A stretch of 64,000 nt of DNA, from contig CM075988.1 of assembly GCA_038087875.1 (NCBI GenBank), positions 14,882,001 to 14,946,000 of the forward strand, given 5' to 3'. This document shows positions 3,256 to 64,000 of this stretch, in pieces. Numbering within the stretch: the first letter of the stretch is position 1; each line of letters opens with the position of its first letter. The position numbers were made by a program, and so were the translations under genes. The notes below the pieces were generated by a model. That model worked only from the letters and a program-made list of their open reading frames with translations, did not search any database and was not told where the DNA came from. The stretch is from Malacoraja senta. Lineage: Eukaryota.

Positions 3256-4215
3256 AGAATATAGAACATAGTAAAGTACAGCACAGGAACAGGTCCTTCG
3301 GCCTTATGTCAAGATAGACCAATCTCATCTGCTTCCACAAGATTCATGTCCCTCCATTTCTACACACACATGTGCCTATCTAACAGCCTCTGAAACACCA
3401 CTATTGTATCTGCTTCCACATCACCCCTGGTGGTACATCACCAGCATCTCCCACTCCCTATGTATTAAAAAAAAAGCCCTGCATATCTACTTTATACTCC
3501 CTCCCCCTCTCTCACCTTAAAGCCACGCCCTTTAGTATTTGACTAAATAATGTTTCGGCAGGTACTGTCACTAAAAAAAAGCATTGCTGTAAACTAATTT
3601 GGAACAAAGGTACGAGTGGGAGGACTGTATAGATCCCTGGATGGTGGGAAGGAAAGAGTTAAAAAGGGTTTCTGGTTTTCCAGCTCTGATGAAGGGTCCT
3701 TGACCTGAAAAATCAACACTGTTTCTCTCCCCCTGGATAAAATGAGGTCGGTCGGACTGTCTATCCGATCTGTGCCTCTCATAATTTTAACAACTTTTAT
3801 CAGGTCTCCCCTCAGCCTTCTATACTCCAGAGAAAACAATCCAAGTTTGTCCAAACTCTCCATATGGTGAATACTCTCTAGTCCACTGCAACCTGGTAAA
3901 CTTTTTCTAAATATCTCTCGAATGCTACTATCACTTCTGACTCTACCACCATCCCTGGAAGTTCGTTCCAGACACCCACCACCCTCTGTGTAAAAAAACC
4001 TGCCCCGCACAAGCTTTAAACGATACCTCTCTACCTTAAAGCTATGCCCTCTAGTCTTTGGCATTTCCACCCTTGGAAAAAGATTTTGACTGTCTACCCT
4101 ATCTATGCCTCTTGTAATTTTATAAACTTCTATCAGGTCTCTGTTCAATTTTATAAACTTCTATCAGGTCCCAGCATTCCAGAGAAAACAATCCATGTTT
4201 GTCCAACAAACTTGC
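3256..4215 (-). mobile_element. CR1/HER1-like LINE 3' fragments, interrupted at 3558-3735
   Basis: ORF 3594..4148 contains the CR1 ORF2 C-terminal motifs DLIEVYKI..GIDRVD..LFP..TRGH and LGLFSLE.RRLRGDLI. Confidence 0.85.
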
Positions 4216-11756: not shown

Positions 11757-11956
11757 NNNNNNNNNNNNNNNNNNNNNNNNNNNNNNNNNNNNNNNNNNNN
11801 NNNNNNNNNNNNNNNNNNNNNNNNNNNNNNNNNNNNNNNNNNNNNNNNNNNNNNNNNNNNNNNNNNNNNNNNNNNNNNNNNNNNNNNNNNNNNNNNNNNN
11901 NNNNNNNNNNNNNNNNNNNNNNNNNNNNNNNNNNNNNNNNNNNNNNNNNNNNNNNN
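11757..11956. other. Assembly gap (200 N)
   Basis: Run of exactly 200 N. Confidence 1.
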
Positions 11957-12960
11957 GATCTGAGCCATTTCTGCCTGGTTCCACCGTGTTCAGCAGGCTG
12001 TTCCTTACTGCGAAGCCTATTCCGTGCTCTCTGGGCTTGTCAGAGTCCTTCCCCTGCCAGTAAAATGTGTACTCCTTCTCCTTCAGTGTGCCCGCGTCTG
12101 CCAGCCTTGTTTCCTGAAGGTGGCTACGTCTACGATGAGTCTTTTGAGCTTGTCGTTTATGACAGCTGTTTTACTGGAATCGCTGAAGTCCTGTAGGTTT
12201 TCAGAGAGGCCAGTCATCATTGTCCGGACATTCCAAGTTCCCAGTTTTAGAGCTGGTCTCTTTTGATGTGTTCCTTTGTTGTTGGTTGGGATCTGCTGTT
12301 CAGATGGTTCCTAATCCCCGTTCACCCAGCGAGGATAGCAGACCGTGGCGGGACAGCACCTTATTGGCTGGGGGCTGCCCAGATTGAGGCGGGCGGTAGC
12401 TGTCCTGTGAGATCTGAAAATCCCTCCCACTGTCGGGAGCAACCCCTGACGCCTCGCTTTACGCCAAACTAGCGATGACTTATAACCGGTAACTGTTACG
12501 CCCCGCGTTGTGTCGACGTCGCAGGCGAAGCTGGAGTGTCCTCTCCAGTTTGTAGATGTAGGTTTGCAGGTGATGTGTGGTCGGATGCAAGCCTAGGCCA
12601 TGTCATATGGAGGACAGGCTGTTGCCCATGCAGCACGTCCCCCCCTCTTCACGTCGCTGATCGATCCAAAGGAACAGCAGGGCCGTTACAGTTTGGCACC
12701 AGCGCCGTCGCAGGAGCTGCCAGAGCGAGGTTGTAGACAACGACAAACTGCCTTAGGGGCTCACACTCCGGATTTTCTTGAGGTTTACTCCTGGAGACTT
12801 TTCCATGAGTGGATATGGCCACAAGGCAGTTGAAGTTTTAAATCAGAGTTTTCCCTCTCCTAGATGCACTGCCTTCCCAGGCTGATGAGCCCCATCTGCC
12901 CGAAACTCATGGGGGTGGGAGCGTCTACCTTCCCACTGCAGGTCTATAACACCTACCCAT
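11957..12960 (-). mobile_element. RTE-clade LINE, 5' UTR plus start of the APE endonuclease (frameshifted, cut by the gap)
   Basis: The minus strand translates LKLGTWNVRTM (around 12221-12250)..QETRL..YTFYWQG..EHGIGFAVRN. The 5' UTR motif CTAGGAGAGGGAAAACTCTGA lies near 12845-12865. Confidence 0.85.
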
Positions 12961-20125: not shown

Positions 20126-21335
20126 AAATCTAAAGTTTGATTGTAATCAAGCAAGGATGATTTACCTGGATAGTACGCAAAACTAAGTTTTATACTGTAT
20201 CTCATGTAAATGTGTGTATCTCTACATGTCTGGTAATGATAAACTAACACCAATACCAAAACCAAATTTAACTGATCAGCATGTTTTCTCATTTGCAGTG
20301 ATTTCCGTCGCAGTGCTGGCATTATTTGTGCTGAGCTGGTCGATTCACCGGATGCCGATGGAATATCATCCACTTCTATAGTCAATAATATTGTTTCATC
20401 TTGACTCTTGTCAGAAATATCATACATTGGTCCTTCTTTAACAATCATGGGATTCCCTTCAGGGACACAGTTGATCTCACAGTCTTCACTAATCTCCTGC
20501 ATATCATGCTGGAAAAGCAAGTGCTGTACGAGAAATCTTATGAATTTTTCACCAATCTTCATGAGATAATTCCTGGAACTACATACCTCGACTATTTCCC
20601 TGAAGTACCATTGTTTTCATCTCCTATCAGAGGTCTCAACATACAAACTCTATTGTGCAAATGGAATCTCTCTTCTTGCACCTTATGTCACAACACATGC
20701 ACTGTGTGAGTGCCTTAGCTCCACTTCTGCTTCCAAACTGAATGAAATTCAATTGTCCACACTGACGAAGGATTCTGACAATAAATGTCGCCCATCCTTT
20801 TTCTCCAGAGATGCTGCCTGACCCACTGAGTTACTCCAGCACTTTGTGTCTATCTTCTGTGCACTGAGTCCCAGTACACTTACATTTCATCTGTGGGGCA
20901 TTGTGCTGTGGTGTTTATTTAGGAGTTTAGAAAAAGTGCTGCAAGTCAATGTTTCATTGTGGCTTGCAGTTAATGTTCTCGGATCTCTTTCTACAACGTG
21001 TCCCTCTGTAGCACAAACACTCACACAACCCAAATTCAATGTCAGAAGCTCTTGCCATTGTTCTGCTCATTGTGGGTACATCATATTTACACAAATTTTC
21101 TGCACTAGCCAAGATCTCTTCAGCCTTTTACAGGTCATTTCTATCGATGCAACTATCTTGCATGCCCATTTGAAGATATGAAGATATGAACTACATGTTT
21201 AATAGCTTAGATGGGATAATGTCATCAGATAGTCCACACACAAACACAAATAAATGTTAGATGGAGAATAAAGTTATTGATGCGGCTCCAGGACAAGAAG
21301 GTCAGAAGGTCCTTGGGAACTTAAGGAATTCCTTC

Positions 21336-21475
21336 TTCTTCTTCTTGCGTATGGCGTGCACAGCCTAAAGTTGTCGGACAACTTGTTCTATTTGATCTTA
21401 TTTGATTGTGCACGCCGGGTTGATTGCATTAGTCGAAACAGGGCGGACCACGTGAAGGTTGCAATCTTCCACCCC
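21336..21475 (-). mobile_element. 140-bp retroposon with HDV-like ribozyme head, structured body, (AAG)n tail and 13-bp TSD; probably mobilised by an ingi/Vingi-type LINE
   Basis: TSD AAGGAATTCCTTC at 21323-21335 and 21476-21488. The minus strand ends CCATACGC(AAG)n. No Pol III A/B boxes are evident. Confidence 0.85.
21422..21475 (-). ncRNA. Putative minimal HDV-like ribozyme (54 nt)
   Basis: Minus strand parses as GGGGUGG-AA-GAUUGCA-ACC-UUCACGU-GGU-CCGCCCU-GUUUCGA-CUAA-UGCAAUC: 7-bp P1 with a G1-U wobble, perfect 7-bp P2, 3-bp P3, 7-nt L3 and J4/2 CUAA. Confidence 0.8.
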
Positions 21476-21705
21476 AAGGAATTCCTTCAGGATACTTAAA
21501 TGTAAAACATATTCAGATGTGTACTTAAACCTCCGGTGCACGTTTGCCAGCATTAGATGGCACCAGAGGAAGGGTCTGCAGCAGTAGAGAGTGGCACAAT
21601 TTAACTGGTCTGAAAATGTAATTCAATTCAATACCAGGCTGCATGCCGGAACTCTGAACCCTGATATCTGTAGACAAACTGTGTGGGAAGAAACCGATGA
21701 TGCGC

Positions 21706-24310: not shown

Positions 24311-25749
24311 ACTGCTATCTCTCAACATCTATAGAGGGGTAACAGTCAGTCAACGCTCCATGTCAAGACCTTTCTAGATGCCTGACCCGCTGAGGTTGTC
24401 AAGCTCTTTCCCTTTTGTAGCTCCAGTATATATATATGGCTGCTCTGGGAAGAGAAGCCGGCACCATGCAGGACCTTTGCAATCTCAAAAGCCTTTCACT
24501 TCTCCGAGGAGAAAACGGATGTCAGAGACTTTCATGTTATTGTCCTGCAGACCTTGCATGAATGTTCCCTTAAGCTGGTTGCTGTGCCAGCACTTTCTCT
24601 CACAGATCAAACAACGTATGCAAATCCTGCCTCTGTGCAGGTAACAGAATCACTAGCCTCACATAGTTTATCCCTAATTCGTGCACAATCAGTCATTGCT
24701 AAACTGAAGTCTCTGAAGAGTATCTGTTGCATAAACATGAGCACAGGAGCAAAGCCGCTGGGCTGCTCAAATTCCACTGCGTTAAGATGTGACAATATTC
24801 CTTAGACAAACAATTGTCCCTAACCTTACTTGTATGAGGATTCACAAATCCCAACCCAAACTCCACTGGAAAATGTCAGGCAGGAAAATTAATGTGCGCA
24901 ACAAATTTAAAATGTGGACAAAGTGTGAGGATAATTAACACAAATTTAAAAGGCTGGAATAATCAAAAAGGACTGGCACAGGGTTATATTAGAACATTTC
25001 TTTAGTTTAGTTTAGTTTATTGTCATGTGTAGTGCAGTGAAAAGCATTTTTGCGCATGCTATCCAGTCAGCGGAAAAGACTATTATTCATGATTACAATC
25101 AATCTGTCCACAGTGTACAGATGCAGGACAAAGGGAATAACATTTAATGCAACATAAGTCCAGTTAAGTCCGATTAAAGATAGTCTGAGGGTCTCCGTTA
25201 AGCTCAGGACCACGTTCAAGTTGGTGATAGGATGGTTCAGTTGCCTGATAAAGGCATTGGGAATGTTAAAAGGCTTAGACAGGATGTCAGGAGAGTAACA
25301 GAGACTCTCTATTGGTAATGCATTAGATGGCTACCAAGAAAGTCTACCGCCTTGGCCATTTTATCTGAAACAGGGCAGCGTGGAACAATGTAATCAGAAG
25401 AGGCACCAAGTGCACAAGCCTTTACTGGATAGTAAAATGGAGCCTCATGTGAATAGGCTGCAGCAAGGTGGATCAGGACCACATGGTGTGTGCTCCTGTG
25501 GCAGCACAACTACATACCTGAACGGAGGGCCTTTCATTCCGAAGCCATGGCTGGATATGGCAGCTCCCGCACTTGTGCACAGCTTCTACTCGGCTGGTAG
25601 CCACTGTGTCCTGGCAGCAGATGGAAGAGCTCAGAATCTTGCCCTCTGCTGGTACTGACTTTGACAGAGAAGACGCCAAGTCTCCCTTTGTCAGGGCTCC
25701 CGTGAAAGATTGGTGACACCTTGGTAGATTGGTTGAACAAGCAACTGAT

Positions 25750-27120
25750 AAACATAGGAGCAGAATTAGGCCATTCAGCCCATTGAGTCTGCTCCACAGA
25801 TTCAATCATGGCTCATCTATTTTTTCCTCTTCACCCCATTCTCCTGCCTTCTCCCATAACCTTTGATGGCCTTACTAATCAAGAGCCCATCAATCTCCTC
25901 TTTAAAAATACCTAATGACGGCCTCCACTGTTGTCTGTGGCAATTAATTCCCCAAATTCACCACCCTCTGTCTAAATAAATTCCTCCTCATCTCCATTCT
26001 AAAGGTACGCCCATTTATTCTGAGGCTATGCCTTCTGGTCCTAGATTCATTCACTTCTGGAGACATCCACTCCCAGGCTTTTCATTATTCAGTAGCTTTC
26101 AATAAGATACCCCTTCATCCTTCTAAACTCCAGCGAGTACAGGCTTAGAGCCATCAAACGCTCCTCATACGTTAACCCAATCATTCCTCGAATCATACTC
26201 ATAAACCTCCTATGGACCCTCTCCATTGCCAACATATCCTTCCTCAGATATAGTGCCCAAAACTGCTCGCAATATTCCAAATGCGGCCTAACAAGTGCCT
26301 TGTAAAACATCAGCATTACATCCTTGCTTTTATATTCTATTTCTCTCAAAATGAATGCTAAAATTGCATTCCCCTTCCTTACTACTGACTCAACCTCCAA
26401 ATTAACCTTTTGGCAATCCCGCAGCAGCACTCCCAAGTCCCTTCTTCTGCCAAAGTGCATAACCGTACATTTTGCTATGCTGTATTCCATTTGCCACTTT
26501 GCCCAATCCCAACCTGCCCAATTCTTTCTACAGACTCCCTGCTTCCTCAACACTACATGGCCCTCCACATATATTCGTACCATCTGCAAACTTGGCCACA
26601 GTCATCATTTACAATATTTCAGACATCTTGCATCTGCCACATTCTGCTGTTCATAAGTTCATGTGATAGGAGCAGAATTAGGCCATTCGGCCCATCAAGT
26701 CTACTGTACCATTCAATCATGGCTGACCTATTTTGCCCTCCTAACCCCATTCTCCTGCCTTATCCCATAACCCCTGACACCCGTACTAATCAAGGATTTA
26801 TCTATCTCTGCCTTAAAAATATCCATTGACGGCCTCCACAGCCTTCTGTGGCAATGAATTCCACAGATTCACCACGCTCTGACAAAAGAAATTCCTCCTC
26901 ATCTCCTTCCTAAAGGAATGTCTTTTATTTCTGAGGCTATGACCTCTGGTCCTAGAATCTCCCACTGGTGGAAACATCCTCTCTATCCAAGCCTTTCACT
27001 ATTTGGTAAGTTTCAATGAGGTCCTCCCTCATCCTTCTGAACTCCAGTTAGTAGAGACCCAGTGCCATCAAACGCTCATCATATGTTAACTGACTCGTTC
27101 CTGGGATAATTCTCGTAAAT
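25750..27120 (-). mobile_element. Two adjacent CR1 3' fragments (~25750-26600 and ~26650-27120)
   Basis: ORF 26089..26589 contains KC.VMHFG..YKALVRPHLEYC.QFW..YEERL..L.LYSLEFRRM. Confidence 0.9.
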
Positions 27121-34280: not shown

Positions 34281-34633
34281 TGTAACGGGTATAGCTTGGA
34301 CCCGATAGCAGCACAGGATCAGGCAGGTATAGTTGGTACTGAACTTTATTCCGATACTGGAACACAGGAATGGGTACACCGTACTCACACAGAGGCTCAG
34401 GATTGAGCGAGGGTTCCGAAGAGGGGCAGGCAGGTTTGAATCCGTGTAGGCATTCGGGAAATCGCTGGAGAGTCTTGCATGAATGCTGAGAACAATCTGG
34501 CACTGTGGGAACGATGAGGAGAGTCTATATACTGGATTAATTGGTGATCAGAGGCAACTGAGTGCCACAGGTGAGGAGAGTTGGGCTGATGAGAGGGGAG
34601 TGGCAGGCAGGCAGGAGAGGGCAGACTGTGACA
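34281..34633 (-). repeat. 3' LTR of the sushi-like element
   Basis: Direct repeat of 39022-39359, with about ten substitutions and two indels by eye. Minus-strand AATAAA at 34345-34350. A PPT-like GGGGTTC is adjacent. Confidence 0.95.
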
Positions 34634-34797
34634 GAACCCCGTTAAGGGACGGCTCCTGACGTCCCAAAACAAAAGGAAAAATAAAAACACAATAAAGAAA
34701 ATAAACCCAATCCCACGCAGAGTTGGGTGGGAGGAGGGGGACCTCATCCTCCTCCATAGCATCAGAGGAAAGCTCCGACTCGTCGTCACTGGGCGCC

Positions 34798-37700
34798 TCA
34801 GATGGAAGTGGCAGACTTGGACGGCTGGTCGGGATGACGCCGGTGAAACTCCCTGAAGAGGGAGGCGTCCAGGATGTGTCGAGCAGGAACCCAGGACCTC
34901 TCCTCTGGACCGTAACCCTCCCAATCGACCAGGTATTGGAGACCCCTCCCGTGACGGCAGGAGCGCAGGAGGCGGTGCACCGTAAAGGCGGGGCCTCCGT
35001 CGATGAGACGAGGAGGTGGAGGAGGAGGGACTGCGGGGACCAGGGAGCTCTCCCGGACTGGCTTTGCTCTGGACATGTGGAACGTAGGATGGACCCGCAT
35101 GGAACGAGGCAACTTGAGCCTCACGGCCACTGGGTTGATGACCTTCTGGATCTCAAAGGGACCGATGAACTTGGGTGCCAACTTCTTGGACTCCACCCTC
35201 AAGGGAAGGTCCCGGGTCGACAGCCACACCCTCTGGCCCGCGAGGTAGTTGGGGGCCTGGGTGCGGTGACGGTTGGCAGTCGTGGCGTAACGGGCCACGG
35301 AGCGGAGAAGAGCCGCCCTGGCTTGGGTCCACATCCTGCGGCAGCGACGAATGAAGGCCTGGACGGACGGGCAGGAAACCTCTTTTCTCCAGCGCCGGGA
35401 ACAGTGGAGGCTGGAACCCGTAGGCACACTGAAAAGGGGAGAGCCCAGTGGCCGAGCTTGTCAGGGTGTTGTGGGCGTACTCCACCCACAACAACTGCTG
35501 GGACCAGGAGGAGGGATGCTTGGACACCATACACCGCAGCGCCGTCTCCATCTCCTGATTCTTCCTTTCAGTTTGGCCGTTGGACTGGGGATGAAATCCG
35601 GACGTCAGACTCACGGTGGCCCCCACAAGCGTGCAGAACTCCCTCCAGAACACAGAGGCAAACTGGGGTCCTCGGTCGGAGACCACATCGACGGGGATAC
35701 CATGGAGCCTGAAGACGTGGAGTAACATGGGCTCGGCAGTTTCCTTGGCTGACGGAAGCTTGGGCAGGGGCACGAAGTGAGCCATCTTGCTAAATCTATC
35801 GACCACGGTCAGGATGGTGGTGTGACCCCTGCATGGGGGCAGGCCGGTAACGAAGTCCAGGGAGATGTGGGACCATGGTCGATGGGGTACAGGCAGTGGA
35901 AGCAGATGACCCGCAGGAGCTTGGTGCGAGACCTTGTGCTGGTTGCAAACGGGACAGACGTTGACAAACTCCCGAGTGTCCTCCTCCAGCGATGCCCACC
36001 AGAACCTCCGTAGCATCATCTCCTTGGTCCGCTGAATGCCGGGATGACATGTGAGTCGAGAGCTGTGGGCCCACTGAAGGACGTCGGACCGCAGGGCAGA
36101 AACCACAAACAGGCGATCAGGAGGGCATGCACTGGGTCCCGGCTGGTTCTCCAAGGCCATCTTGACCCTCTCCTCCACCTCCCAGGTGAGGGAGGCAACC
36201 CTGTGCGAGGACAGGAGGATGGTTTTGGGGCCAGAGGCAGACTCCTCCTTCGCCAAGAACTGTCGAGAGAGGGCATCGGGCTTCACGTTGCGGGACCCAG
36301 GTTGGTAGGAGAGGGAGAAGTTGAAGCGGGTGAGAAAGAGAGACCAGCGGGCCTGACGAGAGTTGAGCCTCTTGGCTGACTGGAGGTATTCAAGGTTCTT
36401 GTGGTCAGTCCAAACCAAGAAAGGCTGTTCGGTTCCCTCCAGCCAGTGACGCCATTCCTCCAACGCCAACTTAACCGCCAATAGTTCTCAGTTGCCAATG
36501 TCATAATTCCTCTCAGCAGGGGTCAGGCGTCGGGAGAAGAAGGCGCATGGATGGAGCTTCTGGTCCCCGGCAGCCTGCTGGGACAGAACAGCTCCCACCC
36601 CCACGTCGGAGGCGTCCACCTCCACCACGAACTGTCTCTCTGAGTCCGGAACTTGGCGGATGGGGGCCGATGTAAACCGTGTCTTGAGTGTCTGAAAAGC
36701 TTCGTCGGCCGCGTCAGACCACCGGAATGGAACCTTGGAGGAGGTGAGTGCCGTGAGGGGTGCGGCCACAGTACTGTAGCCATGGATGAACCGTCGGTAA
36801 AAATTGGCTAACCCCAGGAACCTTTGGAGCTGCTTGCGGGAGTTAGGAACGGGCCAGGTGGTGACAGCAGAGACCTTGGCGGGGTCCATCTTGATGTTCC
36901 CTTGGCCAACGATGTATCCTAGGAAGGAGACTGACGGGGAGTGAAACTCGCACTTCTCAGCTTTAACGAAGAGCGAGTTTGCCAAGAGCCGATGTAGAAC
37001 TGCCTGGACGTGGTGTACGTGTTCCTCCTTGGTCCGTGAAAAGATGAGGATGTCATCAAGATAGACGAACACGTACTTGTTCAACATGTCTCTGAGAACG
37101 TCATTGACCAAAGCCTGGAAGACGGCCGGGGCGTTGGTGAGGCCAAAGGGCATCACCCGGTATTCATAATGTCCCGTGGGAGTGTTGAAGGCGGTCTTCC
37201 ACTCATCTCCCTCTATGATGCGGACCAAGTGGTAGGCGTTGCGTAGATCCAGCTTCGAAAAGATGGTGGCCCCCTCCAGGAGCTCGTAAGCAGAGGAGAT
37301 GAGTGGGAGAGGGTAGCGATTCTTCACCGTGATGCCGTTGAGCCCCCGGTAATCTATGCAGGGACGCAGAGATTTGTCCTTCTTCTCCACGAAGAAGAAC
37401 CCCGCCCCAGCAGGAGACGAGGAGGGACGGATGAGACCAGCAGCCAAGGAGTCGTTTATGTATTTCTCCATGGCGCCTCTCTCAGGGGCGGACAGGGAGT
37501 AAAGGCGACCCCTAGGAGGAGCGGAACCAGGCAGGAGGTCTATGGCGCAGTCATAGGGCCAATGAGGAGGAAGGGAGGTGGCCCTAGACTTGCTAAAAAC
37601 CTCCCCAAAGTCATGGTACTCGGCTGGGACCCCCGTCAGATCTGGAGCAGCACTGGAGCAGGTGGCCGGTTGGGGAGCTGAGGCTTGCTTCAGGCACACT

Positions 37701-39004
37701 TGGTGGCAGGAAGGGCTCCAACCCAAGACGACCCCCATCCTCCAGTCGATGTTGGGGTTGTGTTGCCGAAGCCAGGGGTAACCCAGGATGAGGGGAAGAC
37801 GGGGAGACTGCAGGATGTGGAACTGGATGGTCTCATGGTGATTACCAGACAGGAGCATGCGCACTGGGACCGTCCGGTGAGAAACAGTCCCCAGGCGATG
37901 GCCATCGAGGGCGTCGGCGGGAACAGGTTCAGGCAGGGGAACACAACTGATGCCTAGCTGGCGGGCTAGTTCCTTGTCCATAAGATTAATGTCACAACCA
38001 GAGTCTATGAAGGTGGCGAGGGTGTGAGGACCATCAGACAACAGCAGACGGGCATGACAAAGAGGGCGTCGGGAAGAGGAAAGTTCAGAGGTTCGACGTT
38101 CCCGTTCCTCGGGGGTGAGACTGGTGCGACCCACCTGCATGGGTTCGGGTTGCCTCGACGGTTGCCCCAACGAGGGTAGTCCAGTCTCCGGAGGAAAACG
38201 AGCTTGGGTGGATAGCTGGCGGTCCGCCGGTCCCTGTCGCCTCTCCCGACGTCTCGCCAGGATGCGTCGGTCCAGACGGGTCGTTAGCTCGATAAGCCCA
38301 TCCAGAGAAGAAGGAAGGTCGTGGGACACCAACTCATCCTTGATATAGTCATTCAAGCCCAGCAAGAAAGCGTCACACTGGGCCGGGGCGATCCAATCAC
38401 TCTCACGGGCCCTGGTGCGAAAGTCAATGGCGAAGTCAGCGACGCTCTGGTTCCCCTGGCTCAACCCCAGCAGACCTCCCGCAGCGTCCGGACCCATCGA
38501 AACCTTACCGAACACCTTGCAAAGCTCCGCGGCGAAGGCCTGGAAAGAGGAGCAAGCCGGCTTGCGTCGCTCCCATTCAGCCGTTCCCCACAGCCGAACT
38601 CTGCCAGTCAGGTGATTAATGGTAAACGCCACTCTCACCGCTTCCTGGGCGAAGGTGTAGGGCTGTAGGGTGAAGAGAATGGAACAGTTCGTGATGAATG
38701 GGTTGCAGCCCTCCGTGTCTCCAGCGTAACGCTCCGGGGTTCCCACCCGGGGCTCAGGTGATGTTCCTGGCCGACCAGGAGCTGGTGCTGTCGGAGCCGG
38801 AGGCGAAGCATGGGGTGTAGCCTGGGCGAGGGTGGTTGTCAGCTGTTGGACCTGGGTGGCTAGTGCAACCAATGCTTGTTCTTGGTTTGACACAGCCTGT
38901 CGAATCTCGGAGTTGGAGGCAGTGAGCATAGCTTCGTGCTGCAGGAGCGTGTGCTCAATCCTCCCGAAGCGGTTTGACGGAGACGTAGTGTGCGCCGAGT
39001 CCAT
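34798..39004 (-). pseudogene. Disrupted gag-pol polyprotein
   Basis: ATG at 39004 (MDSAH). Motifs: PR FIDSG, RT YLDD, RNase H VDASDVG, IN H..H..CPVC/DFVTGL/SDRG/QTE, chromodomain [16 protein letters not shown]. Premature TGA at 36488-36490 and a frameshift near 35385. Confidence 0.95.
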
Positions 39005-39009
39005 TGTTG

Positions 39010-39021
39010 GCCAGATTGTAC
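39010..39021 (-). promoter_or_regulatory. Self-priming primer-binding site
   Basis: Minus-strand GTACAATCTGGC lies directly after the 5' LTR and is complementary to the LTR sequence GCCAGATTGT (39237-39246). Confidence 0.8.
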
Positions 39022-39359
39022 TGTAATGGGTATAGCTTGGACCCGATAGCAGCACAGAATCAGGCAGGTATAGTTGGTACTGAAATTTATTCCGATACTG
39101 GAACACAGGAATGGGTACACCGTACTCACACAGAGGCTCAGGATTGAGCGAGGGTTCCGAAGAGGGGCGGGCAGGTAGGTTCGAATCCGTGTAGGCAATC
39201 CGGAAATCGCTGGAGAGTCTTGCATGAATGCTGAGAACAATCTGGCACTGTGGGAACGGTGAGGAGAGTCTATATACCAGATTAATTGGTGATCAGAGGC
39301 AACTGAGTGCCACAGGTGAGGTGAGTTGGGCTGATGAGAGGAGAGGGCAGACTGTGACA
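39022..39359 (-). repeat. 5' LTR of the sushi-like element
   Basis: Minus-strand TATATAG at 39270-39276 and AATAAA at about 39086-39091. Confidence 0.95.
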
Positions 39360-52824: not shown

Positions 52825-53779
52825 TGTCAAAAAGAAAAAAGGTAGGAACGGGAAGCAATAGCTCAGGGAAGAGCTAGGAAATCAAGCAGGGGCAGTAAGG
52901 GTCACCAAGCACGGTGTCAGCTTACCTGGAATGTATCCAGGGCTGTGAAGCCCACAGCCAAGCTCAAGCAGCGGCCACAGACGTTGGGTGGGGGCCTAGT
53001 ACCGTGAAGGCCACGGACAGGTTCAGAAAAGCCACCGACAAGAGGCTGAGTCTTCAGCCCAACTGGGAACAGTCAACCTGGTGGGGGGAGAAAGCAGAGA
53101 AAGCCCAGTCGGGAGCAGAGTCAGCCCGACCGTGCACAGAGAAGCGGAGATAAGCCGAGTTCCGCCCGGGGCTTTAAAAAAGGGCGCACAGCACCGGAAG
53201 CGAGGAAAATACGGAAGTTGACTTGCGGCTAAAAACGTGAACAGTATAATCTAAGAGACTGTCCTAAAAACTGCCGCGATCGCCAGCGAAGGCATGCAGG
53301 ACTGATTATCTACAGCACCCGATTGGCAGCCAGTTTTTCACCTGCTAAAAGACTAAACTGTTAAATACCTACAACATCCAAATGCCTTCAAAGTAATGGT
53401 TGAAGCAATAAATCAAGTGAAACTGTCAATTAATTGCTGAATCAGCCAAAATAAAAGGAGAAAAAAAAATGGAAAAGAAGTGGTTTGGTCATTGAGTGAA
53501 ATCCAGTTCATCATTTCGGGGTGGATGAATCAGATACAATACAATACAACAATACAATACCATTTATTGTCATTTGAACCTCAAATGAGGTTCAAAAGAA
53601 ATTTGGTTTCTGCAGTCAAACAAAACAAAACAGTTCCTACACAACACACAAACAATTCAATCCACAGAAAAACATCCATCACAGTGAATCTCCTCCTCAC
53701 TGTGATGGAAGGCAAAGTCTTTCAAGCGGGGATCCCTTTCAAGCGGGGAATCTGCACAAAAACATTAGAAGACTTGACA
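52825..53779 (+). repeat. Left LTR, carrying a ~204-bp insertion at ~53536-53739
   Basis: Aligns to 59397-60156 apart from the insert. Confidence 0.9.
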
Positions 53780-53845
53780 GTGAAAAACTGCTGTGACCAG
53801 GAGATCTGGAAACCTGGAAAAGAGACAGTTAAGTCAAGATAAATC

Positions 53846-54763: not shown

Positions 54764-55182
54764 GATTTATCTTGACTTAACTGTCTCTTTTCCAGGTTTC
54801 CAGATCTCCTGGTCACAGCAGTTTTTCACTGTCAAGTCTTCTAATGTTTTTGTGCAGATTCCCCGCTTGAAAGGGATCCCCGCTTGAAAGACTTTGCCTT
54901 CCATCACAGTGAGGAGGAGATTCACTGTGATGGATGTTTTTCTGTGGATTGAATTGTTTGTGTGTTGTGTAGGAACTGTTTTGTTTTGTTTGACTGCAGA
55001 AACCAAATTTCTTTTGAACCTCATTTGAGGTTCAAATGACAATAAATGGTATTGTATTGTTGTATTGTATTGTATCTGATTCATCCACCCCGAAATGATG
55101 AACTGGATTTCACTCAATGACCAAACCACTTCTTTTCCATTTTTTTTTCTCCTTTTATTTTGGCTGATTCAGCAATTAATTG

Positions 55183-58100
55183 GTGTCAGCTTAAATGATT
55201 TGCTGATGAAAGGTCCAGACGTCCTCAACCAAATTCGCGCCGTCCTCCTCAGATTCAGAGGCGGAATCTATGCTGCTCTGGGAGACATAAAGAAGATGTA
55301 TAACTCAGTCTGGTTGGAGGACCGTGAAGTACACTTACACAGATTCCTCTGGCGAGATTCCGAGGACGAGGAGCTGGGAGAGTATGCTATCACAAGAGTG
55401 AACATCAGAGACAAACCTGCGGGGTGCATTGCACAGTTGGCAATGTGTGAGACTGCTAATCTTCCTTCTTTTACCCACCTCAAGGATGAGCAGCAAGTAC
55501 TCCAGAAAGACAGCTATGTTGACGACATCCTCACATCTCACAACAGCCTCGACCAGTTGAGAATCATCACAGCAAATGTGGAACGAATCCTGAAAGTTGG
55601 TGTGTTTGAGCTCAAGCCTTGGGTTCTGTCTGGCCAAAGTGGGAGGAAGGAGGACAGTGATACTTTAAAGAAAAGCAAAACAAAAACCATGATCCTACCC
55701 AACCAAATGCATGATGATGATAACAAGGCACTTGGTCTGGGCTACATTGTTGAAGAGGACATGCTCCACGTTATGGTGGGAATCAATTTCTCCAAGAGAA
55801 AGAAAAAGATGCAGCTTGGTCAAGGCCTTCTACAAGAGCAAATCAGAACTCAGACGCCAAATCCCCTAACAAGAAGAGAGCTTCTCAGCCAGGTAGCAGG
55901 GCTATATGACCTCATCGGCATAGTGGCTCCTGTTAAGCAAAAGGGAGCGATTCTAGTACGCAGAGCTTTCCAGGAAGCAAAAGAGGGAAGCTGTTCGGTC
56001 AGAGACACATGGGACATGGCACTCTCAGATGGACTCAGGGAGGATGCAATTAAGCACTTTGAAGAGTATGTACAACTTGGAAAAGTCAAGTTCGTCAGGG
56101 CACTGACTCCCTCTTGCTCCGCAACTGAACCCTTGGGGATCACCTTTTCTGACGGAAGTGAGCACACCTACGGGGCAGGGATGTACCTGAGATGGGATTC
56201 AGACCATGGCCCAATTGTCAGACTTGTGAAATCCAAGGCCAAGTTAACTCCCTTGGACCACAGAGGAGACGCTGTTAAAGCAGAGATGTGCGGAGCAGTG
56301 TTCGCCTCACGCTTGAGGAAGTATTTCGAGCTACACAGTCGAATTCAAGTGGAGAAGTGGTATCATCTTGTGGATAGCCAAACAATCCTTGGTGCAATAC
56401 AGCGAGAAAGCTACGGATTTCAGACATTCTTCGCCAATCGGATTGGAGAGATTCAAACAAGCACCAACATTCAGGACTGACGGTGGATTCCTGGCCCACA
56501 AAACATCGCTGATGTAATCACCAGAGGTGCCAGCCCTCAAGACCTTGATCAGTATTCGGAGTGGCAAAATGGACCGAAGTTCCTGGTGTTGCCTGTGAGT
56601 GAGTGGCCAATAAAATCAGCTAAGGAACTGGCTGCCACTGCCAGAGAGAACATCGAAAAGTTACAGAAGAAAGCTTTTGTTGCAGCACTATCAAGAGCCA
56701 AAGTAGAGAAACAAGAACCAGAACCAACAAATCCAAAGAGACCACCTGCAGGGTCAGCTATACAGAACCTTGTTGATGTCAAGCGGTTCAGCATTCTAAC
56801 TCGACTGATCAAGACAGTCGCATGGATTTGGAGAGCAGCGAAGAGGTTTCTTGGCAAGGAAAAAGCCCTAAACGATCCAAAGTGGGAGGCCATCTCTTTG
56901 ACAGGAGTCATTACAGGAAGAGAACGAGAAAATGCTCTAAAAGACATTTTTTGTGCTGCGCAATTGGGCACAACTTTCCCAAGCACCACAACAGATCGAC
57001 TGGTAGCCTATAAAGACCAAGATTCTGGGCTGATGGTTTGTGGTGGCAGAGTGCAGAGCTTTGAAGAGGATAAAGTTGCTGTTCCCATCCTGCCCGTTGA
57101 TGCCTGGGTGTCCATGCTGCTAGCTCGGGAGGCTCACAGGGAGAGTCATGACGGAGTGGCTGGGACCTTGCTTAAAATGAGAGGAAAGGCTTGGGTCATA
57201 AAAGGAAGGAGAATTGCTCAAAAAGTCGTTGATCACTGCATAATCTGCAAGAAAGCAAAGGCAAAGAAATGTCAACAAGTAATGAGTGATCTGCCGCCTG
57301 AAAGAACTGAACCTGCTGCTCCTTTTGAGTTTACAACAGTTGACCTCTTTGGACCCTACTACGTACACGATGACGTCAAGAAGAGGGTAAAACTCAAAGT
57401 CTGGGGAGTTGTCTTCTGCTGTATGGCCAGCAGAGCCATCCACACAGAGTTAGTCAACACCTTATCAAGTGAAGGGTTTCTGATGGCTTATCAAAGATTC
57501 ACAGCAATCCGTGGGCACCCCAAGAAGATCTGGTCAGATCCAGGCACCAATTTTATTGGCGCAAAACCAGTCTTAGAGGAACTATATAGATTTTTGGACA
57601 ACCTGGACAGAGCAGCTTTGGAGGAGAACGCAGCTAAAAATGGAACAGAGTGGATGTGGAAAATCCATCCTGCTGATTCTCCACACAGAAATGGCGCTGC
57701 GGAAGCTGCTGTGCGTGCTGTGAAGAGAGCGCTCCAAAGTTTTGGAAAAGAATCGTCACTCAGTTATAGTGAGTCTCAGGCAGCTCTTTACATGGCAGCC
57801 AACCTGTCAAATGAACGTCCGATCGACGCCAGGATACAAAGCCGGGAAGACTGCGTTCAGTACATCACACCAAATACTCTTCTGCTTGGCCGAGCAAAAG
57901 ACTTAGAACAATGCAGTCAGAGGTGAACAAGTTTTGGAAGAGCTGGAGCCAACTCGCCGGTCCTAACTTGTTTATAAGGAGCAAGTGGCACACCACTCAG
58001 AGAAATGTCACTGCCGGAGACATTGTCTGGTTAAGTGACCAAAATGCACTGAGGGGGCAATTCAAGCTGGGCAGAGTCCTCAGCTCCAATCCAGACCGCA

Positions 58101-58309
58101 AAGGCATCGTGAGAGACGTTAATGTACGGATCTTTCCAAGTTACTCCATTCCTCTGACAAAGGCTTTGAAAGGAAGGGCAAGGCATTCCACTCAGGGGAA
58201 GGTGAGGATCCAAGCCACGATTGTTCACATGGATGTTAGGCGGCTGGTTGTCTTGCTTCCAGTGGAAGAACAAGACAGCAATGCATCAGGAGACCAAGTT
58301 CAAACCTAG
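55183..58309 (+). pseudogene. BEL/Pao pol (RT, RNase H, integrase, C-terminal domain), disrupted
   Basis: Motifs SLND.L.KGPD.LN, DIKKMY, SYVDD, FSDGS, H..H..CIIC, DLFGP, SDPGTNF, NGAAE and FWKSW. TGA at 56478-56480 and a frameshift or deletion near 57900. Confidence 0.95.
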
Positions 58310-63020: not shown

Positions 63021-63260
63021 ACCTAACTTTGTCCCTCCTTCTCTCTGCGACCACTCAATCTCCATAATCCTTCATGGTAACTGCAATCCTCAAATTCTGG
63101 CCTGTTGACCTTGCCCAAATTTAATCATTCCTTCATTCTCACCCATTGCTTTCCTGAACTTTCCCCCCTCTTCTCCTCTCTTCCTTCCTTCCTTCAACAT
63201 GCCTTCAACTGTTTTGGTAATATATTTGGAGATCTGTCTCAATATGTCTTTCTGTCTCTC

Positions 63261-63291
<31 letters not shown>

Positions 63292-63926
63292 AGAAGTACA
63301 ATCATATGGCACCAAAGTGCCTAATATATAATGACTTATATAATATATAATATATAATGGCTTAATACATTTTATGTACAGCTTCTTATTTTTTTTATTA
63401 TGATAAAGAAGAATAAGAAAAAGAAAGTAGATAGTAGGTATTGGTGTATTTTTCCAGAATTTAAGTATTAGTTTTTTTGCTATTATTAAACCATAATTTA
63501 AAAATAAATTTTGAGATGAGTTCAATTTATTCCCATCTTCCATTACTCCAAATATAATCATTTCAGTATTAGGTTCCATTCTTATCTTGAATAATTTTGT
63601 AAATATTTCATAAATATCACTCCAAAATTTATAAAGTTTTATGCAGGAAACGAAAGAGTGTGTTATAGTTGCGTTTTGGGATAGACATTTATCACAAATG
63701 GGGAATATATTTGGATAAAATTTATTCAATCTAGTTTTTGAATAATATAATCTATGTAAAATTTTAAATTGAATTAAATTATGTCTTGCATTAATCGAAC
63801 ATTTGTGTATATAGATCAAATACTTTTCCCATGTAACCTTCGTAATTTTTATCATTAATTCCCGTTCCCACTCTTCTCTAAGTACCTCTGTCGATGGTAG
63901 GTCTATATTTAAAATACTATTATATA
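63261..63926 (-). mobile_element. 5'-truncated, internally deleted L1
   Basis: ORF 63205..63855 has IQFKILHRLY..CDKC..H.F.SC..FW..AKKLILKFWK. A (TAAAAA)n tail is present. TSD-like TTTCTGT(C/G)TCTC at 63249-63260 and 63927-63938. Confidence 0.88.
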
Positions 63927-64000
63927 TTTCTGTGTCTCATTGCTAAAAAAATGTATTAATAAATCCCCCCATTATTTTATTATGATATCTTGCTATATAA

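What the first reader, a model, noticed from the sequence alone, without database searches (positions are those of the whole stretch)
21323..21488. 140-bp retroposon headed by a minimal HDV-like self-cleaving ribozyme
Seen: the insert is bounded by a 13-bp TSD. Its first 54 nt on the minus strand parse into the HDV nested double pseudoknot: P1 GGGGUGG/CCGCCCU with a G1-U wobble, P2 GAUUGCA/UGCAAUC, P3 ACC/GGU, L3 UUCACGU, a P4 reduced to a UUUCGA stub, and J4/2 CUAA with the putative catalytic C. The predicted cleavage-site G1 (21475) is exactly the base next to the TSD. Known: HDV-like ribozymes define the 5' ends of R2, L1Tc/ingi and several other LINEs. Inference: this is a promoter-less, non-tRNA SINE that is cut out of host read-through transcripts by its own ribozyme and copied by an ingi/Vingi-type LINE, as the CATACGC(AAG)n tail suggests. 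I cannot tell whether the family is already catalogued.
Basis: partly seen in the sequence, partly recalled or inferred. Interest (0 to 1): 0.85.

Follow-up and report, generated by a model that had tools for sequence, protein, structure and literature searches.

The report
Ribozyme-headed short retroposon family
This is one copy of a young, very abundant 140-base mobile element whose first 54 bases form a stripped-down self-cutting RNA of the hepatitis-delta type, a known trick of certain jumping genes seen here in an unusually small form.

Summary
Window 21336-21475 (minus strand) is a 140-nt retroposon with a 10-13 bp target-site duplication. Its first 54 nt fit the HDV-like nested double pseudoknot with no mismatch.

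- **Copy number and ends:** the genome holds at least 2,365 copies, and 30 of 30 examined start at the predicted cleavage base G1.
- **Chance:** 1 of 200,000 shuffles fits the same anchored descriptor.
- **Relatives:** two relatives in the same genome, a compact single-ORF LINE with its deletion derivative and a second LINE, start with larger ribozymes of the same architecture. Both-sided compensatory changes occur at 11 of 17 helix pairs. Both LINEs carry (AAG)n tails.
- **RNA evidence:** in oligo-dT RNA-seq of a related organism, template-switch-oligo sequence abuts G1. RNAs therefore begin exactly there.

What is not shown:
- Self-cleavage itself was not tested, so transcription initiation at G1 is not excluded.
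- No LINE shares this element's head or 3' module at near-identity.
- The "ingi/Vingi" clade assignment is plausible but untested.

The kind of element is known (R2 SIDEs, NARTc/RIME, bipartite non-autonomous LINEs). The P4-less minimal ribozyme, the chordate-type host and the size series 85/67/54 nt are the new aspects.

The parts
21476..21488 (-). Upstream copy of the target-site duplication (GAAGGAATTCCTT in RNA sense)
   Evidence: The same 13-mer lies at 21323-21335. Among the 30 copies at other loci, 28 have their own duplication of 5-16 bp, median 12.
21422..21475 (-). 54-nt minimal (P4-less) HDV-like ribozyme. G1 is at 21475. The putative catalytic C44 is at 21432, in J4/2 (21429-21432).
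   Evidence: descriptor fit and pair list. RF02682 scores 16.0 bits and RF00094 13.4 bits, both aligned from G1 and both below their gathering scores; the published descriptor residues are present.
21469..21475 (-). P1 5' strand GGGGUGG, pairing with 21440-21446 (CCGCCCU)
   Evidence: Relatives change pairs 3, 5, 6 and 7 on both sides.
21460..21466 (-). P2 5' strand GAUUGCA, pairing with 21422-21428 (UGCAAUC); this is the pseudoknot with P1
   Evidence: Six of the 7 pairs change on both sides among relatives.
21447..21459 (-). P3 ACC/GGU enclosing L3 UUCACGU (21450-21456)
   Evidence: The L3 heptamer is identical, and in the same register, as in a primer for the mouse Cpeb3 ribozyme said to start 18 nt from the cleavage site.
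21433..21439 (-). G37-U38 (P1.1 side) plus the UUCGA linker that stands where P4 would be
   Evidence: 7 nt here against 20 nt in SINE2/LINE-A and 38 nt in LINE-B.
21347..21421 (-). 3' module. A long stem (21407-21416 GGCGUGCACA with 21353-21362 UGUGCACGCC) encloses the hairpin GUUGU-CCG-ACAAC (21370-21382). The module ends in CAUACGC.
   Evidence: MFE fold; whole-element z-score only -1.55. Subfamilies differ here far more than in the ribozyme.
21336..21346 (-). (AAG)n tail; it merges into the duplication, up to 15 nt
   Evidence: tail 7-21 nt in 28 copies, median 13.
21323..21335 (-). Downstream copy of the target-site duplication

Best explanation
The element is a non-autonomous non-LTR retroposon built from two functional modules and no ORF.

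1. Inferred: it is transcribed as part of longer host or neighbouring transcripts.
2. Fold shown by sequence and covariation, cleavage inferred: the 54-nt head folds into a minimal HDV-like double pseudoknot and cuts the RNA 5' of G1. This gives the RNA a defined 5' end.
3. [quoted passage not shown] That enzyme nicks a target and primes on the tail.
4. Outcome shown: the RNA is copied to its very 5' end, so each new copy starts at G1, keeps a complete ribozyme and is flanked by a 9-15 bp duplication.

The head is a miniaturised version, with P4 lost, of the ribozymes that open the related LINEs.
For: Family and ends:
- At least 2,365 matches to a 32-nt head/junction pattern at up to 1 mismatch, with 0 in the reversed control.
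- The 40 scored copies are 96-100% identical to the window copy.
- 30 of 30 loci start at G1 (29 GGGGTGG, 1 AGGGTGG), and 28 of 30 have their own duplication.

Fold:
- All 17 pairs are standard.
- The anchored chance rate is 1 in 200,000.
- The residues fixed in a published HDV descriptor are present at the matching places: the G1-Y wobble, the first L3 U, the L3 C-G, the P1.1 C-G pair and J4/2 C-R-R-A. The commonest subfamily has CGAA.
- Two Rfam HDV models align P1, P3 and L3 from G1.

Relatives:
- SINE2/LINE-A (67 nt) and LINE-B (85 nt) begin, next to their own duplications, with ribozymes of identical layout: helices of 7, 7 and 3 bp, a 2-nt J1/2 and a 7-nt L3.
- There are both-sided changes at 11 of 17 pairs, and no unpaired cell in 51.
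- P1.1 appears to change from C-G to U-A.
- The SINE2/LINE-A heads score 28-33 bits on RF02682.

Constraint: among places that vary in at least 5% of reads, 2 of 34 stem positions vary against 7 of 20 unpaired ribozyme positions (Fisher p = 0.009) and 26 of 86 body positions. The frequent stem change, G32 to A, turns U-G into U-A.

RNA:
- In two oligo-dT libraries, 456 and 539 reads have loose ends just upstream of G1, with median lengths 26 and 31.
- The consensus of those loose ends matches the reverse complement of the template-switch oligo printed in PMC8579666 at 25/30 and 22/30 positions, 18/18 and 15/18 over the first 18.
- The match includes the oligo's own GGG on top of the element's GGGG.
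- 91% of laid reads run on into unlike sequence, so the element is mostly embedded in longer RNAs.
Against: - No cleavage assay exists. A template-switch junction marks an RNA 5' end but cannot tell cleavage from transcription initiation.
- The RNA runs are from organism label C, which holds 0.7-0.8 of the element's sampled words, and may not be the window's own species. I saw only a consensus, not single reads, so the share of oligo-bearing reads is unknown.
- Rfam scores are far below gathering (16.0 against 44; 13.4 against 50), and RF00622 (CPEB3) gave nothing at E up to 10.
- Within the family there is no both-sided change (0 of 17 pairs in 66 copies). That sample was also biased by my search patterns.
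- The three-lineage comparison rests on structure-guided parses that require pairing. Homology of the three heads is inferred from layout and context.
- P4 is absent and P1.1 has one G-C pair plus U-U, so activity could be weak.
- No LINE shares the head or the 3' module. The tail likeness to LINE-A and LINE-B is only 13/20 and 12/20.
- The whole-element fold is not exceptional (z = -1.55).
Confidence: 0.8

Rival explanations
1. The head is an internal promoter or initiator. RNAs start at G1 because a polymerase (Pol II, as at the Pr77 region of L1Tc, or Pol III) initiates there. The HDV-like fold is then inactive or serves another purpose, such as 5' protection or protein binding.
For: - Template-switch junctions at G1 fit a transcription start equally well.
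- In L1Tc/NARTc the same first 77 nt are reported to be both a promoter and a ribozyme (abstract of PMC3383444, seen in the listing).
- P4 is missing and Rfam scores are low.
Against: - A-box and B-box matches are no better than in 2,771 of 5,000 shuffles.
- No tRNA was found, and no small-RNA family matches the 54-nt head at E up to 10; the sub-threshold snoRNA, miRNA and lncRNA matches lie in the flanks or the 3' module.
- A promoter does not explain 11 compensatory pair changes among three lineages with the catalytic-core residues kept.
- 91% of RNA reads continue into unrelated flanks.
Confidence: 0.1
2. The head is a dead relic. It descends from a LINE ribozyme but lost activity with P4. 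Copies start at G1 only because the master copies' transcripts happen to start there, or because of 5' processing by host nucleases stalled at the stable fold.
For: - Loss of P4.
- P1.1 is weakened to one G-C pair.
- No biochemical data.
Against: - The family is the youngest and most numerous of the three (96-100% identity, at least 2,365 copies).
- Subfamily-defining changes avoid the stems and the core residues and fall on J1/2 position 8 and J4/2 position 45, while the 3' module drifts.
- Minimal HDV-like ribozymes without P4 are a described class (PMC10879173, passage seen).
Confidence: 0.08
3. Chance resemblance: an ordinary repeat whose 5' end happens to be drawable as a pseudoknot.
For: - Earlier notes of this scan on other genomes found such drawings to be chance.
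- My descriptor was written after seeing the candidate.
Against: - The anchored chance rate is 1 in 200,000.
- Two further element types meet the same descriptor at their own 5' ends, with covariation.
- Rfam HDV models hit those relatives at E of 1e-3 to 1e-2.
Confidence: 0.02

Closest known systems
R2 SIDEs (short internally deleted elements) of Drosophila (PMC3414825, abstract read)
   Same: - A 5' HDV-like ribozyme joined directly to a 3' end that the reverse transcriptase recognises.
- No ORF.
- Spread by target-primed reverse transcription in trans.
   Different: - SIDEs are rare and site-specific in rDNA, and are recognisable deletion derivatives of R2 or R1.
- This family is dispersed and has thousands of copies.
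- It has a P4-less head and shares neither end at near-identity with any LINE found here.
NARTc/RIME of trypanosomatids and other bipartite ORF-less non-autonomous LINEs (RTE, Ingi, Vingi, R2) (PMC5786205 section 23; listing)
   Same: - LINE 5' end plus LINE 3' end.
- A ribozyme at the extreme 5' end is proposed to explain why the true 5' end is kept.
- SINE2 of this genome is exactly such a derivative of LINE-A.
   Different: - For the element in the window the parent is not identifiable.
- The head has lost P4 and the 3' module is unique.
- The host has a chordate-type genome, not a trypanosomatid one.
Minimal HDV-like ribozymes and theta ribozymes (PMC10879173, passage)
   Same: Double pseudoknot without the P4 domain.
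   Different: - Those come from metagenomes and gut phages, next to tRNAs. That paper says the origin and function of minimal variants remain to be determined.
- This one heads a eukaryotic retroposon.
Mammalian CPEB3 ribozyme (PMC4836649 passages; PMC10919898 primer)
   Same: - The same register for positions 1-38.
- L3 TTCACGT is identical.
- P1.1 has one G-C pair plus U-U.
- A 4-nt J4/2; the main subfamily has CGAA, and C57-G58-A59-A60 are named in CPEB3.
   Different: - CPEB3 is single-copy and intronic, has a P4 hairpin, and is not known as part of a mobile element.
- RF00622 gave no match here at E up to 10.

Membership tests
HDV-like self-cleaving ribozymes | Nested double pseudoknot: P1 and P2 interlaced, with P3 inside P1 | tested here: met
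   All 17 pairs are standard. The anchored descriptor is met by 1 of 200,000 shuffles.
HDV-like self-cleaving ribozymes | Cleavage 5' of G1, with G1 in a wobble pair closing P1 | tested here: inconclusive
   The G1-U36 wobble is present. Genomic copies (30 of 30) and RNA template-switch junctions start at G1. The chemistry of the end, and cleavage itself, were not tested.
HDV-like self-cleaving ribozymes | Conserved core: first L3 U and L3 C-G, the P1.1 C-G pair, and J4/2 C-R-R-A with the catalytic C (descriptor in PMC6326823) | tested here: met
   U20, C22, C24, G25, G37, C44, A46 and A47 are present. Position 45 is U in this copy, and G or A in most copies. The second P1.1 pair is U-U, as stated for CPEB3.
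HDV-like self-cleaving ribozymes | P4 helix | tested here: not met
   Only 7 nt lie between P1 and J4/2. The described minimal class also lacks P4.
HDV-like self-cleaving ribozymes | Covariation that supports the helices | tested here: met
   Across SINE1, SINE2/LINE-A and LINE-B, 11 of 17 pairs change on both sides and 0 of 51 cells are unpaired. The parses are structure-guided. Within the family, 0 of 17 pairs change on both sides.
HDV-like self-cleaving ribozymes | Rfam gathering score (RF00094, RF02682, RF00622) | tested here: not met
   16.0 against 44 and 13.4 against 50, with no RF00622 hit. The relatives score 28-33 bits against 44.
HDV-like self-cleaving ribozymes | Self-cleavage in vitro, abolished by mutating the catalytic C | not testable with these tools
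   Bench assay needed.
Bipartite ORF-less non-autonomous LINE (SIDE/NARTc type) | Both the 5' end and the 3' end are recognisably those of an autonomous LINE | tested here: not met
   Eight pattern searches found only variants of the element itself (read with 12 and 15). The last 20 nt match LINE-A at 13/20 and LINE-B at 12/20. The feature is met for the sister family SINE2 against LINE-A.
Bipartite ORF-less non-autonomous LINE (SIDE/NARTc type) | Target-site duplications, a 3' repeat tail, and no ORF | tested here: met
   The element is 140 nt.
Classical SINE (Pol III head from tRNA, 7SL or 5S) | Head related to a small RNA gene, with A and B boxes | tested here: not met
   No tRNA found, and no tRNA, 5S or 7SL family matches at E up to 10; the sub-threshold snoRNA and miRNA matches lie outside the 54-nt head. 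The box matches are equalled in 2,771 of 5,000 shuffles.
Vingi/Ingi-clade LINE as partner | Compact single-ORF APE+RT element without RNase H, sister to the RNase H-bearing Ingi (as described in PMC13708176) | tested here: inconclusive
   Homologues of LINE-A are about 1,000 aa on 3.1-3.6 kb contigs with APE+RT and no RNase H. Weaker hits carry PF00075. No phylogeny with named references was possible, and use of this LINE by the window's element is inferred from the tail only.

The most novel reading that the evidence does not exclude
A natural miniaturisation series of HDV-like ribozymes (85, 67 and 54 nt) exists within one chordate-type genome.

- The P4-less 54-mer is fully active in vivo. 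It drives the most successful, currently spreading retroposon of the three, which has freed itself from sequence identity with any LINE except a few terminal bases and the (AAG)n repeat.
- This would give minimal HDV-like ribozymes their first eukaryotic biological role.
- It would add a Vingi-like LINE group to the clades known to open with such ribozymes.
- It would make retroposons of this CPEB3-like core type a concrete candidate source for exapted single-copy vertebrate ribozymes.
Probability: 0.35. Interest if true: 0.75.

Novelty: new variant of a known kind. Interest (0 to 1): 0.6.

Why it matters
Ribozyme-headed LINEs and their deletion derivatives are known, so the principle is not new. 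Four things are worth having.

1. **A compact, high-copy, apparently active retroposon whose whole 5' function fits in 54 nt without P4.** A 2024 paper says the origin and function of minimal HDV-like ribozymes are still open.
2. **Three related ribozymes in one genome** that supply natural covariation and a natural P4-deletion experiment.
3. **In vivo read evidence** for RNA ends at the predicted cleavage base.
4. **A minimal pair of cis modules** (a 54-nt head and a roughly 75-nt 3' hairpin with tail) that may suffice for trans-mobilisation by a compact single-ORF LINE. LINEs of that kind are now being studied as gene-insertion tools.

Tried and rejected
**Partner hunt by exclusion patterns.** Patterns anchored on the head or the 3' module required non-element bases beside them.
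- All 45 exact hits that I read (30 loci) were variants of the element, as were the 19, 27, 67, 22 and 241 hits of the later calls.
- The variants were indel forms, a second body subfamily, or 5'-truncated copies.
- Three odd loci fetched gave no ORF.
- Only the looser tail pattern led on to SINE2 and the LINEs.

**(AAG)4+ tails in 311 kb of sampled sequence:** only 1 non-family case, a plain repeat.

**The look-up of sequencing runs:** no RNA holder is listed on record; X1-X14 are guessed RNA.

**Table 6** lists no begin or end pile-ups. The G1 signal appears only as loose ends that carry oligo sequence.

**Other negative checks:**
- RF00622 (CPEB3) gave no hit.
- Pfam found nothing on the degenerate 445-aa LINE-A fragment.
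- The whole-element fold z-score is -1.55.
- Covariation within the family is absent, and the sample was biased by my patterns.
- Earlier findings of this scan hold nothing for this genome or this sequence.

**Papers not held:** PMC3308841 (Ruminski 2011) and PMC3002237 (Kojima 2011). What they report on SINE-like or Vingi elements I know only through the review and the Kojima 2018 passages.

**In print:** searches found no paper describing this family or a ribozyme in Vingi. Dfam and Repbase could not be consulted.

Full report
**What is there.** The minus strand of window 21336-21475 is a 140-nt insert.
- It starts GGGGTGG and ends CATACGC followed by AAG repeats.
- It lies between two copies of GAAGGAATTCCTT. 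The first bases of that duplication cannot be told from the tail, so the duplication is 10-13 bp.

**A large, young family.** The window lies in a 1.94-Gb assembly whose sampled LINE protein resembles chordate proteins most.
- A search with the element found 773 first-look candidates. The 40 that were scored are 96-100% identical to it.
- A 32-nt pattern across the end of the head matched 2,365 places at up to one mismatch, and 0 for the reversed control.
- In the 30 loci fetched first, 30 of 30 copies begin at the same base (29 GGGGTGG, one AGGGTGG).
- 28 of those 30 carry their own duplication of 5-16 bp (median 12) after a tail of 7-21 nt.
- So this is a real retroposon family with a sharply defined 5' end.

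**The fold.**
- The first 54 nt form P1 (1-7/30-36, closed by G1-U36), P2 (10-16/48-54) and P3 (17-19/27-29). All 17 pairs are standard.
- The nested half (P1 plus P3) is within 0.2 kcal/mol of the minimum free energy of the 54-mer.
- L3 is UUCACGU. Positions 37-43 are GUUUCGA, too short for a P4. J4/2 is CUAA.
- A published HDV descriptor (PMC6326823, passages) fixes the G1-Y wobble, the first L3 U, the L3 C-G, the P1.1 C-G and J4/2 C-R-R-A. All have their counterparts here.
- Position 45 is U in this copy, and G or A in most copies.
- L3 is identical, and in the same register, as in a primer for the mouse Cpeb3 ribozyme that starts 18 nt from the cleavage site (PMC10919898).
- A P1.1 made of one G-C pair and a U-U is what PMC4836649 describes for CPEB3.
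- Minimal HDV-like ribozymes without P4 are a described class (PMC10879173).

**Chance.**
- My own descriptor, anchored at base 1, was met by 1 of 200,000 shuffles of the 54 nt.
- Unanchored, it hit 0, 2, 0, 0, 0 times in five shuffles of the window. It hit 7 non-family places in 622 kb of real sequence, against 61 family heads.
- The descriptor was written after seeing the candidate and partly from memory.
- Rfam gives only weak matches: RF02682 at 16.0 bits (gathering 44) and RF00094 at 13.4 bits (gathering 50). Both align P1, P3 and L3 from G1. RF00622 gave nothing.

**Relatives and covariation.** Exclusion patterns around the head and the 3' module found only variants of the element itself. 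A looser tail pattern then found another family with the same ACGC(AAG)n end.
- *SINE2* has 823 candidates; the 40 scored are 76-100% identical, and 34 of the 40 matches cover the 158-nt query from base 1 to base 157 or 158.
- SINE2 starts, next to its own duplications, with a 67-nt HDV-like ribozyme that has a 5-bp P4 hairpin.
- The same head opens *LINE-A*. About 48 nt after it come an ATG and an APE endonuclease domain.
- The 3' ends of LINE-A have the stop codon about 20 nt before the (AAG)n tail.
- The C-terminal 48 aa of LINE-A found 1,833 candidates.
- SINE2 is therefore an internal-deletion derivative of LINE-A.
- Homologues of LINE-A are about 1,000-aa APE+RT proteins on 3.1-3.6 kb contigs without RNase H. 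More distant ones carry RNase H.
- A second lineage, *LINE-B*, is bounded by duplications, ends in GACA(T/C)ACGACAG(AAG)n and opens with an 85-nt ribozyme.
- All three heads have helices of 7, 7 and 3 bp, a 2-nt J1/2 and a 7-nt L3 of the form U...CG.
- Among the three, 4 of 7 P1 pairs, 6 of 7 P2 pairs and 1 of 3 P3 pairs change on both sides. None of the 51 cells is unpaired, and P1.1 seems to change from C-G to U-A.
- The SINE2 and LINE-A heads reach 28-33 bits on RF02682.
- The caveat is that these parses demand pairing, so the weight lies in three separate element termini each passing a rare descriptor.

**Constraint within the family.**
- No pair changes on both sides in 66 copies. That sample was biased by my patterns.
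- In the read pile-up, places varying in at least 5% of reads comprise 2 of 34 stem positions, 7 of 20 unpaired head positions and 26 of 86 body positions. Stems against unpaired gives p = 0.009. Eight further rows of that table were not shown to me.
- The frequent stem change, G32 to A, keeps the pair (U-G becomes U-A).
- The subfamily markers in the head are position 8 (J1/2) and position 45 (J4/2).

**RNA.**
- The element's words are held by 20 runs of 11 studies under 7 coded organism labels. None is on record as RNA.
- I laid two raw oligo-dT RNA-seq runs of label C, reading about 5% of each. 3,029 and 3,143 reads fell on the element and none on its flanks.
- 91% of those reads run on into unlike sequence, so the element sits mostly inside longer RNAs.
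- Just upstream of G1, 456 and 539 reads carry short loose ends (median 26 and 31 letters, against 60-78 for other flanks).
- The consensus of those loose ends matches the reverse complement of the template-switch oligo printed in PMC8579666 at 25/30 and 22/30 letters. The first 18 match at 18/18 and 15/18.
- The oligo's three G stand in addition to the element's four. This argues against strand invasion at the element's own G run; that argument is my inference.
- So cDNAs end, and RNAs begin, at G1. This does not tell cleavage from initiation.
- The table of begin and end pile-ups was empty.

**Rivals.**
- A Pol III head is unlikely. No tRNA was found, no small-RNA family matches the 54-nt head at E up to 10 (the sub-threshold snoRNA and miRNA matches lie outside it), and box matches are equalled in 2,771 of 5,000 shuffles.
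- A Pol II initiator in the head, as reported for L1Tc, remains possible and could coexist with a ribozyme.

**Partner.**
- No LINE shares this element's head or 3' module.
- Its last 20 nt match LINE-A at 13/20 and LINE-B at 12/20. The ends compare as CA(T/A)ACGC and CATACG before (AAG)n.
- Mobilisation by this LINE group is inferred from that likeness and from the shared repeat tail.
- The clade is not settled. The features fit what a review says of Vingi. [quoted passage not shown]
- No paper in the held library links Vingi with a ribozyme.

**Verdict.** This is a genuine ribozyme-headed non-autonomous retroposon. The kind is known (SIDEs, NARTc/RIME; the review PMC6765202 also mentions SINEs with HDV-like ribozymes). 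The P4-less head, the lack of an identifiable parent and the three-step size series make it a new variant.

Noticed in passing
L083:1971-2053 (-) = G000:C1:320228970-320229052: A single-copy, canonical-looking HDV-type ribozyme candidate with P4. RF00094 scores 43.8 bits (gathering 50), E = 1.8e-5 in a local scan, over the full model. It contains the CUGGGCAAC stretch of the model consensus. There is no ORF of 80 aa or more on its strand in the 2 kb downstream, and no second copy in the assembly.
   Followed up: partly
L084:2411-2582 and loci L085-L121: SINE2 is an older family (76-93% identity to one another's reference), 160-195 nt long. It consists of the LINE-A ribozyme, 5' UTR and first codons joined to the last ~25 nt of LINE-A. 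A longer subfamily (about 193 nt) keeps more of the 5' UTR.
   Followed up: yes
L130-L133 (G000:C1:165.94 Mb and C6:42.56 Mb): A third related LINE lineage (44-45% identical to P0001, with open frames of 976-1,028 aa) ends in an AAAT-like repeat rather than (AAG)n. Its 5' end was not resolved.
   Followed up: no
G000, 22 places listed: A class of 5'-truncated copies of the window's family begins at or near the same point (CAAGTTGTCC, the foot of the inner hairpin), with unrelated upstream DNA. 15 of the 22 listed hits show this.
   Followed up: no
L033 (G000:C1:355.37 Mb): A copy consisting of the ribozyme head plus 17 other bases, flanked by an apparent 10-bp duplication, with no 3' module.
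   Followed up: no
L109 (G000:C1:232.81 Mb): A SINE1 head directly follows base 136 of a SINE2 copy: either a nested insertion or a chimera.
   Followed up: no
L049 (G000:C8:36.53 Mb) and G000:C18:2905262: Two copies carry TTGCGTAT (or TTGCTTAT) instead of AACCC after the head. This extends the long stem of the 3' module to a 17-nt perfect inverted repeat with the element's end.
   Followed up: no
window 34400-39300 (-): A GC-rich Ty3/gypsy-type LTR retrotransposon. It has gag, RVT_1, RNase H and integrase domains in two long ORFs (934 and 444 aa).
   Followed up: partly
window 55080-58300 (+), with 53441-53842 (+) and 54767-55168 (-): A Pao/BEL-type element (Peptidase_A17 and an integrase zinc domain). 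Just upstream, two identical 133-aa frames lie in inverted orientation, which indicates an inverted duplication.
   Followed up: partly
window 26089-26601 (-), 3594-4160 (-), 63205-63936 (-): Fragments of other LINEs. Two are CR1-like C-terminal frames with no Pfam hit, one followed by a tail region ending near 25740. The third is a frame with a weak zf-RVT match (20.7 bits, below the cut-off of 27.5).
   Followed up: partly
window about 11800-12000: A run of N (an assembly gap) inside a LINE-like frame.
   Followed up: no
G000 small contigs C727, C2178, C2824, C2485, C2310 and others: The same LINE-A copy, with the same flank and the same 3' disruption, recurs on many small contigs. This indicates a segmentally or tandemly duplicated block rather than independent insertions (checked for C727 against C2178).
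   Followed up: partly
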